A stretch of DNA of 64,000 nucleotides. Origin: a virus. Shown in pieces: positions 39,869-64,000 of the stretch (positions are counted from its first letter, which is position 1; the number at the start of each line of letters is the position of its first letter). A program made the translations under genes and the position numbers. The DNA is taken from positions 2,749 through 66,748 of the IMG/VR virus record IMGVR_UViG_3300021962_000091; one strand, given 5' to 3'. The notes beneath the pieces are model-generated. The model saw only the letters and a program-made list of their open reading frames with translations. It was not told the origin of the DNA and did not search any database.

Positions 39869-40150
39869 CTAACCCAACTTATCTTGCAAGAACGAATTAT
39901 CTTTGAGCATCCGTTTTTGTGCCAATTCCTCCATGAGCGCGACTTTGAGTTTTGACGTGAGTAATTTTTTGATGGATTCGTATTCCCGATCGTGATGTTC
40001 ACACAGGGCCAAAATGGCATCAAAATAGGAAAGGTGATACCGACGCACCAGCGTTTCTACCACACGCGTGAATTCCTCGGGTGTCGGCACTGGTGCCGTT
40101 AAACACTCATCGGGGCGAGTAAACATTTTGCCATAACCATTCATACGCAA
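39869..40150 (-). CDS. gp33: Late transcription coactivator gp33
   Basis: F...VE.LV....LSYFDAI...CE...E.ESIKKLL...LK..L..E; immediately upstream of gp32. Confidence 0.8.
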   Translation of the reverse strand: MRMNGYGKMFTRPDECLTAPVPTPEEFTRVVETLVRRYHLSYFDAILALCEHHDREYESIKKLLTSKLKVALMEELAQKRMLKDNSFLQDKLG

Positions 40151-40156
40151 TCCACA

Positions 40157-40759
40157 TTATAATCCATAAAATCGATGTTGCCCTACGGTCGCCACATACG
40201 TCAGGGTCTGTGACCACTTGGGAGAAATATCCACGCGATGAAAATGGGTCACGGGATATTCTTCGGTAATTATATCACGTTCTCGCAGAAGTTGACGTGC
40301 CAATTGCACAAACGACGCCGGCGGACGGCGTGACCAGTTTCGATAATTCAACGTCCATGAATACTGATACGGCTGATAGACGACGCCACACACGGACTGT
40401 GGATAATTCGCACTTGTCATGCGATTGAATACCGTGGCCGCCACCGCCACAATTCCTTCATGCGGTTCGCCCCTCGCTTCAAAATAGAGATTCTGGGCCA
40501 AGCACACGATGGACTGTGTGGGTCGTTTGGGGGCCGCAGGAGTCTTGGTGGATGGTCGTGCCGGCGCCGACGAGACCGGCGCCACGCGGGCATCGAGTCC
40601 GTCGCGCAGAACTCCAGCGGTGGACGTCTGTGCGGGGGACAACACATAGGCGGGCAGAAAGCATAGCAATACTATTCCACACGCCAACATACGACTTCCC
40701 CATATACGAAGTGCGTTGATCATACAAACTCCTTTCGAGGAAATGCGAACGATTATCAT
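40157..40759 (-). CDS. Cell wall hydrolase (SleB/Hydrolase_2) with an N-terminal signal/TM segment (start may be ATG 40723)
   Basis: CLAQNLYFEARGEP...AVA....NR....YP.SVCGVVYQPYQYSW...HFH...P.W...G.H.FY. Confidence 0.88.
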   Translation of the reverse strand: MIIVRISSKGVCMINALRIWGSRMLACGIVLLCFLPAYVLSPAQTSTAGVLRDGLDARVAPVSSAPARPSTKTPAAPKRPTQSIVCLAQNLYFEARGEPHEGIVAVAATVFNRMTSANYPQSVCGVVYQPYQYSWTLNYRNWSRRPPASFVQLARQLLRERDIITEEYPVTHFHRVDISPKWSQTLTYVATVGQHRFYGL

Positions 40760-40802
40760 ACACTATACTCACTCACTGTACACGCGGTCGTGCCGCGCCA
40801 AT

Positions 40803-40835
40803 AAAAAATGCCGGGTTGGGTGCAGCGGAGCCGGC
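40803..40835 (-). terminator. Probable terminator at the tmRNA 3' end
   Basis: gccgg...ccggc stem followed by a T6 run on the minus strand. Confidence 0.55.
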
Positions 40836-41100
40836 GCGCTGTTGTGAACACTTCTGTTGCCAGGTGGCTCACGGGAACCCCTGATACCCGTAGGTATCAA
40901 GTAGCAGCACTAGGCTGCCATAGCGAACTGATATTGGTCAGTTCTGGGTGTCTCTGTTTAACGACAGCGACTTGTCGAGTGCCTCCATCGCATTCCAACT
41001 CCGCCGAATCGATTCTACGTCACCCCCGTAACTGGATTGGTGGAGGTGTCGGGCTCTGCCCCCGAGTCTTCTTGCGGTCAAACACGACTTCATCGAACAC
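40810..41100 (-). ncRNA. ssrA: Circularly permuted (two-piece) tmRNA; tag peptide (A)DQYQFAMAA
   Basis: Minus-strand order: T-arm TCGGG-GGCAGAG-CCCGA and CACCTCC-ACCA (CCA ends at 41038), a 10-nt spacer, then GGGGGTG (41027-41021). These form a 7-bp acceptor stem with the G3.U70 Ala determinant. Tag ORF GAC CAA TAT CAG TTC GCT ATG GCA GCC TAG at 40939-40910. Outer ends are approximate. Confidence 0.9.
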
Positions 41101-41110
41101 TATACTCTAT

Positions 41111-41314
41111 TTAGACGACCTCATCCCCAATATGTTCCTCGGGTGTGTCAATCAACTCGTGGCCTTCCTCCAGATGCAGCACTGAGGCAATTTTGCTCAC
41201 GGCGTCGGCAATGGCCTGATTGTTACCGGCAATATTGGCGTAGTAAATCTTCGTGATGATGCTGTCACACCACGCGTGATATTCTGCAATCGTGCGAAAT
41301 TTTCCTCTCGGCAT
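41111..41314 (-). CDS. Hypothetical protein, 67 aa
   Basis: ORF packed tightly between the exonuclease and the tmRNA. Confidence 0.55.
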   Translation of the reverse strand: MPRGKFRTIAEYHAWCDSIITKIYYANIAGNNQAIADAVSKIASVLHLEEGHELIDTPEEHIGDEVV

Positions 41315-41318
41315 AGGG

Positions 41319-42080
41319 TTATCCTAACTGCGTGTTCACTAAGGTGGCAAATTTGTCAATCCGTTCGCGCAACAACGGACGATGCACCGCCACATCACTT
41401 TCTTGCCAGAGAATACGATCCGGTAACAACTGCGCAATCACAATAGTATCAATGATACCAGACTTCCAGTGTTCTGTCAACGCATCGGCATAAAACGCGG
41501 CTTGAATGCCGTAGTTCTGCAAGCGATTGCCGGTCTTCGGTTTTTTGCCGGTCTTGAAATCCAGAATCGCATACCGGCCGTCGTGCAACTGAATGGCCAT
41601 ATCCAAGCGACCCGCCAGCCCATACGTCGAGGACACCACCCGCGTTTCCGAGGCAATGACGGACGCAATCCGCGCATTCAACGTCTGCCCCAGCAACGCC
41701 GCATACGATATATCGTTGGGTTCGGTCAAATTGGCCCACGCCACGGGCTGTCGAGCGACGAACTGTTCGCAGAAGGTATGCCATTGCGTGCCTCGCCTTG
41801 CGGCGGTGGATGTAATGCGCGTCGCGGCGTCATGCCCCACGGCGGTGCGCCACTGTTTCAACGCGTTATTGCCTTCGTCATCGGTGGCACTAATCATTGT
41901 CGTGATCGACGGATAGTATTCCCCCTGATACACATACCAACGTTTGCCGTCGCGCATCGTTTCATTGAGCGTGATCGGCAACGACACCGGCGCAAACGTA
42001 ATCTGCGACGGCGGCAACACCGCCGCGTGCGGTGCCGGCTGAAACGGAATCGAGGTGGAGCGCCAGAGGGTCGTCGTCAT
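41319..42080 (-). CDS. PD-(D/E)xK exonuclease (T4-like cyanophage type)
   Basis: YPSITT, L..WR..VG, RGT..H..CE, AGRLD...ILDFKT...Y.IQ...YA. Confidence 0.85.
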   Translation of the reverse strand: MTTTLWRSTSIPFQPAPHAAVLPPSQITFAPVSLPITLNETMRDGKRWYVYQGEYYPSITTMISATDDEGNNALKQWRTAVGHDAATRITSTAARRGTQWHTFCEQFVARQPVAWANLTEPNDISYAALLGQTLNARIASVIASETRVVSSTYGLAGRLDMAIQLHDGRYAILDFKTGKKPKTGNRLQNYGIQAAFYADALTEHWKSGIIDTIVIAQLLPDRILWQESDVAVHRPLLRERIDKFATLVNTQLG

Positions 42081-62488: not shown

Positions 62489-62572
62489 TGGCGGTGAGGA
62501 CAGGAATCGAACCCGCTACCGGTTGTCCGGCGACAGCTTTCAAGGCTGCGTCCCACCATTAGGCTCCTCACC
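62489..62572 (-). tRNA. tRNA-Ser (anticodon TGA)
   Basis: GGTGAGG/CCTCACC acceptor stem, GCAGC-CT-TGA-AA-GCTGT anticodon arm, long variable arm, TTCGATT T-loop, G73 and an encoded CCA. Confidence 0.88.
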
Positions 62573-63491: not shown

Positions 63492-63576
63492 TGGCGGAGA
63501 GGACAGGAATCGAACCTGCAAGTGTTTTACCACGGCGGGTTAGTAATCCGCTGCCTTACCGTTAGGCTACCTCTCC
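63492..63576 (-). tRNA. tRNA-Ser with atypical anticodon ACT
   Basis: GGAGAGG/CCTCTCC acceptor stem, GCGGA-TT-ACT-AA-CCCGC anticodon arm (A31-C39 mismatch), long variable arm, TTCGATT T-loop, G73 and CCA. Confidence 0.8.
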
Positions 63577-63933: not shown

Positions 63934-64000
63934 TGGTAGCGGTAATGGGAATCGAACCCATCTTCCAGCCTTGAAAGGGCTGTGTCCTAGCCGATAGACG
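63934..64000 (-). tRNA. tRNA-Glu (anticodon TTC); 5' end beyond the window
   Basis: CAGCC-CT-TTC-AA-GGCTG anticodon arm, ATGGG-TTCGATT-CCCAT T-arm, ACCA end. Confidence 0.88.

What the first reader, a model, noticed from the sequence alone, without database searches (positions are those of the whole stretch)
40810..41100. Circularly permuted two-piece tmRNA in a phage
SEEN: the acceptor 3' half with CCA comes before a 10-nt spacer and the GGGGGUG 5' half; the stem has G3.U70; the T-loop is GGCAGAG instead of UUCRANY; the tag reads (A)DQYQFAMAA-stop; a CTAAATA motif lies upstream and a terminator-like hairpin downstream. KNOWN: permuted tmRNAs occur in Alphaproteobacteria (GGCRGUA-type T-loop), some Betaproteobacteria and some cyanobacteria; tags ending in AA are ClpXP degrons; the phage tmRNAs I know of are mostly one-piece. 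INFERENCE: a functional phage ribosome-rescue RNA, perhaps expressed late. The T-loop hints at an alphaproteobacterial-type origin or an independent permutation, which is a possible host clue.
Basis: partly seen in the sequence, partly recalled or inferred. Interest (0 to 1): 0.78.

Follow-up and report, generated by a model that had tools for sequence, protein, structure and literature searches.

The report
Two-piece tmRNA gene in aquatic phage
A T4-like water phage carries a real gene for a two-piece ribosome-rescue RNA (tmRNA), but such genes are already described in related phages at the same genome position, so this is a new example of a known kind.

Summary
On the minus strand, 41101..40843, lies a circularly permuted tmRNA gene. 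Rfam scores it 71.9 bits (tmRNA_permuted, cut-off 47) and 68.1 bits (alpha_tmRNA, cut-off 50). CCA at 41040-41038, the 10-nt spacer, GGGGGUG at 41027-41021, G3.U70, T-loop GGCAGAG and the tag (A)DQYQFAMAA-UAG are all as described. Eight phage homologues show covariation.

The window is a fragment of a T4-like myovirus. The gene lies between a PD-(D/E)XK nuclease and the gp33-like late coactivator. The published two-piece ssrA of phage Melnitz occupies the same slot (PMC9004378). That paper counted 53 two-piece forms among 133 unique phage tmRNAs, so the kind is known. This scan has also reported phage two-piece tmRNAs on other DNA.

Smaller new points:
- CTAAATA is probably this phage's late promoter (Aeh1 precedent, PMC1524935).
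- There is no glutamine riboswitch.
- The resume codon is Asp and the tag ends AMAA; neither occurs in the 54 bacterial tags compared.
- Default ARAGORN misses the gene.

The host clue is weak. RNA processing and tagging remain untested.

The parts
41108..41114 (-). CTAAATA, a late-promoter-like motif. It overlaps the TAA stop of the upstream 67-codon ORF. With C at -12, as described for phage Aeh1, the predicted start is 41102/41101, which is the first base of the outer helix.
   Evidence: Precedent in the PMC1524935 passage. Same position in L080; TATAAATA at that position in Melnitz and L004.
41038..41101 (-). Acceptor piece (64 nt): 5' strand of the inter-piece helices (41101-41069), T-arm 41065-41049 (loop GGCAGAG), acceptor 3' strand 41048-41042, and encoded ACCA 41041-41038.
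   Evidence: Rfam alignments, pair list, covariation.
41028..41037 (-). Intervening spacer AUCCAGUUAC (10 nt), presumably removed by RNase P and 3' trimming.
   Evidence: In 58 bacterial tmRNAs with the same T-arm the spacers run from 5 to 230 nt, median 38, and 10 of 58 are 12 nt or shorter.
40843..41027 (-). Coding piece: acceptor 5' strand GGGGGUG (41027-41021), 3' strands of the inter-piece helices (41008-40978), first stem of pseudoknot 1 (40977-40962), tag frame, post-tag hairpin (40901-40880), and the alpha-type 3' hairpin with the GGCAACAGAA loop (40872-40844). The true 3' end is unknown and may extend to the U-run.
40910..40939 (-). Tag reading frame GAC CAA UAU CAG UUC GCU AUG GCA GCC UAG, giving (A)DQYQFAMAA-stop.
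   Evidence: ARAGORN at -ps90. L080 encodes DNYSYAMAA, with three synonymous third-base differences in conserved residues.
40800..40835 (-). Short GC stem (GCCGG/CCGGC, 16-nt loop) followed by a run of six U. A possible terminator, conserved in L080 but weak by energy.
   Evidence: Not reported by the consensus scan. Single copy in the window.
41111..41314 (-). Upstream 67-codon ORF with no family match and no similarity to the Melnitz ORF in the same position.
41319..42080 (-). PD-(D/E)XK nuclease, the upstream boundary of the conserved slot.
   Evidence: Pfam PF12705 and PHROG 298. 32% identical to Melnitz gene 83.
40157..40759 (-). Cell-wall hydrolase (Hydrolase_2), immediately downstream of the tmRNA.
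   Evidence: 49% identical homologue follows the tmRNA in L080.
39869..40150 (-). gp33-like late-transcription coactivator, the downstream boundary of the conserved slot.
   Evidence: Pfam PF16805. 35% identical to the Melnitz coactivator.
40808..41185 (+). Spurious 125-codon ORF antisense to the tmRNA. It is likely to be called a hypothetical protein by gene finders.
   Evidence: It overlaps the whole RNA gene.

Best explanation
This is a complete alphaproteobacterial-type, circularly permuted (two-piece) tmRNA gene resident in a T4-like, Kyanoviridae-like aquatic myovirus. It is the positional counterpart of the published ssrA of phage Melnitz.

Inferred mechanism:
1. A precursor of about 260-300 nt is transcribed from the CTAAATA late-type promoter, starting at about 41101.
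2. Host tRNA-processing enzymes cut 5' of G41027 and trim to the encoded CCA at 41038, removing the 10-nt spacer.
3. The 64-nt acceptor piece and the roughly 185-225-nt coding piece stay together through the 7-bp acceptor stem and about 15 bp of inter-piece helices.
4. Host AlaRS charges the RNA through G3.U70.
5. Host SmpB and EF-Tu deliver it to stalled ribosomes.
6. Translation resumes at GAC and adds (A)DQYQFAMAA before UAG. This frees the ribosome and marks the peptide for host proteases.

Shown here: the sequence, the fit to the family models, covariation, synteny, and conservation of the gene and its tag.

Inferred only: transcription timing, processing, charging, tagging, and the benefit to the phage. 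One possible benefit is keeping ribosomes free while host RNA is being destroyed.
For: - Rfam: RF04321 71.9 bits and RF01849 68.1 bits, both full length and above gathering score.
- Acceptor stem: all 7 pairs standard, with G3.U70. G.U is present in 8 of 8 homologues.
- Covariation on 8 phage sequences and 31 pairs: 77.7% of cells paired against 64.5 +/- 2.1 in shuffles (0 of 500 reach it) and 39-49% when partners are slid. 18 of 31 pairs change on both sides.
- Tag frame conserved in L080, with 3 synonymous changes.
- The gene is 100% identical in two other IMG/VR contigs. It shows no difference across 40843-41101 in contigs of 4 runs from 4 studies.
- Phage context: baseplate wedge and hub, gp32, gp33. 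The record is classed as a virus at 37% completeness.
- Same slot as Melnitz ssrA: nuclease, small ORFs, tmRNA, coactivator, ssDNA-binding protein.
- CTAAATA: 17 sites against 5.17 expected (0 of 100 shuffles reach 17). 13 of 17 lie within 76 nt upstream of a same-strand ORF, including baseplate and tail-tube genes. CTAAATA is the reported late promoter of T4-like phage Aeh1.
- No SmpB in this record or in 5 other tmRNA-carrying phage records. This fits dependence on host SmpB.
Against: - No RNA evidence exists. No RNA run holds the stretch, so transcription, the two cuts and the timing are untested.
- Single-sequence folding gives no support: z +0.54 for the tRNA-like half.
- The inter-piece duplex energy is only modestly better than shuffles: 17 of 200 shuffles are as low for the window, and 107 of 200 for L004.
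- The two outer inter-piece helices pair in only 52% and 45% of cells on the MAFFT alignment. The covariance model marked three non-standard pairs that I had to shift by one base to repair.
- ARAGORN at default settings does not call the gene.
- The terminator is weak.
- The resume codon is Asp rather than Ala, and the AMAA ending is found in none of 54 bacterial tags compared. Recognition of this tag by host proteases is assumed, not shown.
- The record is only 37% complete, so the absence of smpB from it is not informative on its own.
Confidence: 0.8

Rival explanations
1. The RNA is a decoy that titrates host SmpB or AlaRS and so inhibits host trans-translation, as proposed for the TLD-only molecule of mycobacteriophage DS6A. 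On this reading it is not a working rescue RNA.
For: The PMC4131195 passage states that a TLD-only molecule strongly inhibits tmRNA. No phage smpB was found. The tag is atypical: Asp resume codon and AMAA ending.
Against: The full tag frame, pseudoknot-1 stem, post-tag hairpin and alpha-type 3' hairpin are all kept. The tag is conserved at the amino-acid level, with synonymous changes in L080. That is not expected of a decoy needing only the tRNA-like domain.
Confidence: 0.07
2. The gene is a recent capture from the current host, or an ssrA fragment left by imprecise prophage excision. If so, its type would name the host as an alphaproteobacterium.
For: The T-arm/acceptor pattern is found in 60 genome contigs, almost all titled as Alphaproteobacteria or families within that class. 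Some small-genome alphaproteobacteria share a short spacer.
Against: - 54 of 401 sampled alphaproteobacterial genomes match, but every match covers only query positions 34-93, and the best is 84% over 60 nt.
- The gene is complete, not a fragment.
- It sits in the same slot as in Melnitz, whose nuclease is only 32% identical. This argues for long residence in phages.
- Relatives L080 and L082 have other T-loops.
- Melnitz infects a non-alphaproteobacterial host.
- I did not search for an integrase.
Confidence: 0.1
3. The stretch is an assembly chimera: a bacterial tmRNA gene joined to phage DNA.
For: The record is a metagenomic fragment.
Against: The same junctions occur in two other IMG/VR contigs from other samples. 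They also occur in single contigs that span the whole 701 nt in two runs of different studies, one of 12,556 nt and one of 2,351 nt. Phage genes flank the RNA on both sides. A related contig, L080, has the same arrangement.
Confidence: 0.01

Closest known systems
ssrA of Methylophilales phage Melnitz EXVC044M (MZ577097) and related pelagimyophage tmRNAs (Buchholz et al. 2022, PMC9004378)
   Same: - Alpha-type two-piece tmRNA in a T4-like aquatic myovirus.
- Same genomic slot between the PD-(D/E)XK nuclease and the late-transcription coactivator.
- Shared 3' AACAGAA hairpin.
- No phage smpB.
   Different: - The spacer is 10 nt here and 142 nt in Melnitz.
- There is no glutamine riboswitch here; Melnitz has one.
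- Melnitz has TTGACA-17-TATAAA upstream and is described as early-expressed. This phage has only CTAAATA.
- The tag is DQYQFAMAA here and ANDNYVPVDYALAA in Melnitz.
- A cell-wall hydrolase gene lies between the tmRNA and gp33 here.
- The flanking proteins are only 32-35% identical.
Two-piece tmRNA of Caulobacter and other Alphaproteobacteria (Rfam RF01849; Keiler, Shapiro and Williams 2000, seen only as reference 73 of PMC9004378 and otherwise recalled)
   Same: Permuted gene order, GGCRG-type T-loop, G3.U70, encoded CCA, inter-piece helices and the 3' hairpin. The model matches over its full length.
   Different: - It is phage-borne.
- The score of 68.1 bits is modest.
- The resume codon is Asp. 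53 of 54 bacterial tags compared start with Ala, and none starts with Asp or ends in AMAA.
- The tag is short: 9 encoded residues.
One-piece tmRNAs of mycobacteriophages (Bxz1 group), Bacillus phage G, and the TLD-only RNA of DS6A (PMC4131195)
   Same: Phage-encoded tmRNA genes without a phage smpB being reported in the passages I read.
   Different: Those have the standard gene order or are TLD-only. This one is permuted and complete.
Phage two-piece tmRNAs with a protein gene in the spacer
   Same: The same kind of gene in large aquatic phages. Relative L080 has a 93-nt spacer from which a 57-codon ORF starts.
   Different: The window's spacer is only 10 nt and cannot hold a gene.

Membership tests
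Permuted (two-piece) tmRNA, alphaproteobacterial type (Rfam RF04321 / RF01849) | Scores above the curated gathering thresholds over the full model | tested here: met
   71.9 bits against 47 and 68.1 bits against 50. Model positions 1-213 and 1-355 are both covered.
Permuted (two-piece) tmRNA, alphaproteobacterial type (Rfam RF04321 / RF01849) | Permuted order: T-arm, acceptor 3' strand and CCA lie upstream of the acceptor 5' strand and the tag frame | tested here: met
   CCA at 41040-41038, then a 10-nt spacer, then GGGGGUG at 41027.
Permuted (two-piece) tmRNA, alphaproteobacterial type (Rfam RF04321 / RF01849) | 7-bp acceptor stem with G3.U70 (alanine identity) | tested here: met
   7 of 7 pairs are standard. 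The stem is 100% paired, and the G.U pair is present in 8 of 8 homologues.
Permuted (two-piece) tmRNA, alphaproteobacterial type (Rfam RF04321 / RF01849) | T-arm with the alpha-type GGCRG.. loop | tested here: met
   The loop is GGCAGAG, against the model consensus GGCgGUA. The same arm occurs in 60 genome contigs, nearly all alphaproteobacterial by title. It also occurs in 5 viral contigs that score as beta-type, so the loop alone is not diagnostic.
Permuted (two-piece) tmRNA, alphaproteobacterial type (Rfam RF04321 / RF01849) | Helices joining the two pieces, supported by covariation | tested here: met
   In the inner helices, 6 of 6 pairs change on both sides and 72.9% of cells are paired. 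The outer helices reach only 52% and 45% on the MAFFT alignment. A duplex is predicted at the same register in 6 of 8 homologues.
Permuted (two-piece) tmRNA, alphaproteobacterial type (Rfam RF04321 / RF01849) | Tag reading frame with resume codon, stop codon and a hydrophobic ..AA end | tested here: met
   DQYQFAMAA-UAG, conserved in L080 with synonymous changes. The resume codon is GAC rather than GCN.
Permuted (two-piece) tmRNA, alphaproteobacterial type (Rfam RF04321 / RF01849) | Pseudoknot 1 upstream of the tag | tested here: inconclusive
   Only the first stem was counted, with 58-87% of cells paired. The second stem was not modelled.
Permuted (two-piece) tmRNA, alphaproteobacterial type (Rfam RF04321 / RF01849) | Maturation into two RNA pieces; alanylation; SmpB-dependent tagging | not testable with these tools
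   No RNA run holds the stretch. These features need bench work.
Melnitz/pelagimyophage-type phage ssrA (PMC9004378) | Located in a T4-like myovirus between the PD-(D/E)XK nuclease and the late-transcription coactivator | tested here: met
   The cyanophage S-SRM01 has the two genes adjacent with no tmRNA between them.
Melnitz/pelagimyophage-type phage ssrA (PMC9004378) | Glutamine riboswitch at the 3' end (called common but not defining in the paper) | tested here: not met
   No glnA-type match at E up to 1 in 40500-41500.
T4-type late promoter, Aeh1 variant CTAAATA (PMC1524935) | Motif enriched upstream of virion genes, about 12 nt before the start site | tested here: met
   17 sites against 5.17 expected. 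13 of 17 lie within 76 nt upstream of a same-strand ORF, including baseplate wedge, baseplate hub and tail-tube genes. Start sites themselves are not testable here.

The most novel reading that the evidence does not exclude
The tmRNA is not a host-derived passenger. It belongs to an old tmRNA lineage that evolves inside phages. The lineage has been held in the nuclease-gp33 slot across Kyanoviridae-like phages whose flanking proteins are only about 32-35% identical.

In this branch (window, L080, perhaps L082) the gene has been re-tailored in three ways:
- late-promoter control;
- an Asp resume codon;
- a short D-x-Y-x-[FY]-AMAA tag not seen in the bacterial tags compared.

The spacer is either reduced to 10-11 nt (window, L082) or long enough for an ORF to start in it (L080).

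If this is right, the tmRNA type says little about the host. Phage tagging during late infection would serve a phage-specific purpose. Censuses made with default ARAGORN would also undercount these genes: here it called 2 of 8 homologues, and none of the alpha-type viral loci that share this T-arm.
Probability: 0.3. Interest if true: 0.4.

Novelty: new member of a known kind. Interest (0 to 1): 0.22.

Why it matters
The finding adds a well-supported example, from freshwater, estuarine and marine samples, to the known class of phage two-piece tmRNAs. It also yields four practical points:
- The nuclease-gp33 slot is a conserved home for this gene in distantly related T4-like phages.
- In this phage the gene sits behind a late-type CTAAATA promoter, whereas an early promoter was reported for Melnitz.
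- The tmRNA type and T-loop are poor host markers.
- Default ARAGORN misses this gene and most of its relatives, while gene callers see a 125-codon antisense ORF in its place. Covariance models should therefore be used when annotating viral contigs.

It does not open a new question about trans-translation.

Tried and rejected
- ARAGORN at default settings on the window found no tmRNA. Lowering the threshold to 90% recovered it.
- blastn of 601 nt against 50,697 phage records found no match, so no isolate has a closely similar tmRNA at DNA level.
- Single-sequence folding did not separate the tRNA-like half from shuffles (z +0.54), nor the terminator hairpin (z +1.05). I do not use either as support.
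- A sigma-70 promoter was not found in front of the gene.
- The exact 10-mer GAGTATAGTG occurs at 41098-41107 and 40761-40770. With one mismatch allowed the count is not above chance (4 matches; 15 of 100 shuffles reach 4).
- The stem motif GCCGGCTCNGCTG is single-copy in the window.
- Neighbour-protein searches in IMG/VR found only the two identical contigs, one 49%-identical relative (L080) and one weak hit (L081) without a tmRNA.
- The 17-mer scan gave one spurious AT-rich locus (L084). I judged it unrelated by eye and left it out.
- The truncated loci L002 and L005 were left out of the alignment.
- No RNA holder was listed for the stretch, so expression and processing could not be examined. 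The one read-laying run used DNA contigs only.
- I did not scan metagenome contigs and built no covariance model of my own.
- I did not search for an integrase or for gp55.
It may already list relatives of this gene.
- I considered and rejected an independent permutation event. The full-length alpha model fits, including the 3' hairpin.

Full report
**1. The observation**

Read on the minus strand, the stretch contains the following, in order:
- an outer helix starting at A41101;
- a T-arm at 41065-41049 with loop GGCAGAG;
- the acceptor 3' strand CACCUCC, followed by ACCA ending at 41038;
- a 10-nt spacer AUCCAGUUAC (41037-41028);
- the acceptor 5' strand GGGGGUG (41027-41021);
- further on, the frame GAC CAA UAU CAG UUC GCU AUG GCA GCC UAG (40939-40910).

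All seven acceptor pairs are standard, with G3.U70. CTAAATA lies at 41114-41108.

Rfam matches two models over their full length and above their curated cut-offs. tmRNA_permuted scores 71.9 bits against 47 (E 7.4e-12). alpha_tmRNA scores 68.1 bits against 50 (E 1.8e-16).

ARAGORN at default settings did not call the gene. At a 90% threshold it calls a permuted tmRNA at about 41131-40819 with the tag DQYQFAMAA.

The downstream 'terminator' is a 5-bp GC stem with a 16-nt loop, followed by a run of six U. It is no more stable than shuffles (z +1.05) and was not picked up by the consensus scan. It is conserved in a related contig.

**2. What the DNA is**

The window is positions 2749-66748 of a 66,748-bp IMG/VR virus record. 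The record is linear and estimated 37% complete.

PHROG and Pfam hits identify a T4-like myovirus: baseplate wedge and hub, tail tube, gp32, gp33-like coactivator and a PD-(D/E)XK nuclease. The nearest isolates are cyanomyophages and other Kyanoviridae, at about 27% (baseplate wedge) to 53% (gp32) amino-acid identity.

The 701-nt stretch around the gene is held by 20 listed sequencing runs from 11 studies. The samples are marine, estuary, freshwater, lake and drinking-water metagenomes. Three of these runs may be the source samples.

Contigs of four runs from four studies show no difference within 40843-41101. Two single contigs span the whole stretch. Two other IMG/VR contigs carry the gene 100% identical over 321 nt. 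A chimera is therefore excluded for practical purposes.

**3. Comparative support**

The T-arm/acceptor pattern occurs in 14 viral contigs. All 14 carry permuted tmRNAs by Rfam, some alpha-type and five beta-type.

A relative, L080, has a tmRNA in the same place, again preceded by CTAAATA. Its cell-wall hydrolase is 49% identical to the window's. Its tmRNA differs in three ways:
- a canonical T-loop UUCGACU;
- a 93-nt spacer;
- the tag DNYSYAMAA.

Compared with the window, three of the conserved tag residues use synonymous codons, as expected of a translated frame.

L082 shares the conserved leader before the tag, has an 11-nt spacer, and has a frame ending DNFALAA.

I aligned eight phage sequences: the window, L080, L082, Melnitz, L004, L008, L009 and L010. 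The structure was taken from the window's fit to the model, with one helix shifted by one base. Results:
- 77.7% of cells are paired, against 64.5 +/- 2.1 in shuffles (0 of 500 reach it) and 39-49% when partners are slid.
- 18 of 31 pairs change on both sides.
- The acceptor stem is 100% paired, with G.U in 8 of 8.
- The T-arm is 94.9% paired and the inner inter-piece helices 72.9%.
- The two outer helices reach only 52% and 45%. I attribute this at least partly to gaps in the MAFFT alignment.

This test is biased towards a structure derived from one of its own rows.

Thermodynamics alone is unhelpful.

**4. Relation to what is published**

Buchholz et al. 2022 (PMC9004378; passages read) describe a two-piece, alpha-type ssrA in the OM43 myophage Melnitz and in pelagimyophages. 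Their counts are:
- 402 of 18,146 phage genomes carry a tmRNA;
- these give 133 unique structures, 53 of them two-piece by ARAGORN;
- 50 of those 53 come from marine or aquatic phages.

The Melnitz record shows this gene order: PDDEXK nuclease, two small ORFs, tmRNA, late-transcription coactivator, further genes, ssDNA-binding protein. The window shows nuclease, 67-codon ORF, tmRNA, cell-wall hydrolase, coactivator, gp32.

The nucleases are 32% identical and the coactivators 35%. The small ORFs are unrelated. In cyanophage S-SRM01 the nuclease and coactivator genes abut, with no tmRNA between them.

The 2025 tmRNA database paper (PMC11915505; passages read) lists 79 unique bacteriophage sequences and 11,946 permuted ones. 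Earlier notes of this scan also report many phage two-piece tmRNAs on other DNA. The kind is therefore known, and this is a new member.

**5. What differs here**

(a) Promoter.
- CTAAATA occurs 17 times in the window against 5.17 +/- 2.06 expected. None of 100 shuffles reaches 17.
- 10 of the 17 sites are intergenic, although a greedy ORF set covers 96.9% of the window.
- 13 of 17 lie within 76 nt upstream of a same-strand ORF. These ORFs include baseplate wedge, baseplate hub and tail-tube genes.
- TATAAATA occurs four times, always intergenic.
- In T4-like phage Aeh1, CTAAATA beginning at -12 is the reported late promoter (PMC1524935; one passage read). That spacing puts the start at 41102/41101, the first base of the outer helix.
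- Melnitz instead has TTGACA-17-TATAAA and was described as early.

(b) No glutamine riboswitch.

(c) Spacer. It is 10 nt here, against 29-158 nt in the other phage homologues except L082. This is not unprecedented: 10 of 58 bacterial tmRNAs with this T-arm have spacers of 12 nt or less.

(d) Tag. Of 54 bacterial tags called at the 90% threshold, 53 start with Ala and one with Val. None starts with Asp and none ends in AMAA. The phage homologues start with Asp, Val or Ala, and three end in AMAA.

(e) Detection. Default ARAGORN called 2 of the 8 phage homologues. It called 5 of the 14 viral loci, all beta-type, and 50 of the 60 bacterial loci.

**6. Host**

The alpha type is clear, but it is a weak host marker, for three reasons:
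- 54 of 401 sampled alphaproteobacterial genomes match, but only over query positions 34-93, the tRNA-like core. The best match is 84% over 60 nt.
- The nearest phage relatives have different T-loops.
- Melnitz is a published case of an alpha-type tmRNA in a phage of a non-alphaproteobacterial host.

**7. Mechanism and limits**

No smpB is present in this fragment. None was found in five other tmRNA-bearing phage records either. Two of those are 100% complete by CheckV, and two are isolate genome records. The RNA must therefore use host SmpB, AlaRS, EF-Tu and processing enzymes.

Transcription timing, the two cuts, charging, tagging and the benefit to the phage are all inferences. No RNA data were available.

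**8. Verdict**

Novelty: a new member of a known kind. Interest is low to moderate.

Noticed in passing
L080:3309-3482 (+): In the related contig, a 57-codon ORF (MITFGICWGILAAV...) starts inside the 93-nt tmRNA spacer. It runs through the acceptor 5' strand and pseudoknot 1 and ends at the UGA that overlaps the resume codon. The hydrophobic start resembles the small spacer genes reported in earlier notes of this scan. I did not test whether it is selected.
   Followed up: partly
window 63492-63576 (-): A long-arm tRNA (Rfam 55.8 bits) has the anticodon loop UUACUAA, which ARAGORN reads as Ser with anticodon ACU. The closing pair of the anticodon stem is an A-C mismatch. From recall, A at position 34 is unusual outside tRNA-Arg. 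Two further tRNA genes lie nearby, at 62489-62572 and at 63937-64000 (cut by the window end).
   Followed up: no
L006, L007, L011, L012, L013: Five viral contigs carry beta-type permuted tmRNAs (86-139 bits on RF01850) with the same GGCAGAG T-arm. In the genome collection that pattern was found almost only in genomes titled as Alphaproteobacteria or families within that class. This T-loop therefore crosses tmRNA subtypes in phages.
   Followed up: no
KU682439.2 102838-103059 (locus L089): Stenotrophomonas phage DLP_6, a T4-like relative by gp32, has a strong permuted tmRNA match (136.8 bits on RF04321). From recall, its gammaproteobacterial host group has one-piece tmRNA. The gene is not in the gp33 slot shown.
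   Followed up: no
window 41098-41107 and 40761-40770 (-): The exact 10-mer GAGTATAGTG occurs twice. One copy is at the tmRNA start. The other is about 40 nt upstream of the likely start of the hydrolase gene (the ATG that follows AAAGGAG). It may be a shared start-region element, or it may be chance.
   Followed up: partly
window 40808-41185 (+): A 125-codon ORF runs antisense across the whole tmRNA gene. Gene callers will probably annotate it as a hypothetical protein.
   Followed up: yes
window 40903-40988, contigs of runs X4 and X19: Other contigs in the same metagenomes match only the pseudoknot-1 and tag part, with 11 differences in 86 nt and 8 in 63 nt, then diverge. This indicates further members of this tmRNA branch in freshwater and drinking-water samples.
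   Followed up: no
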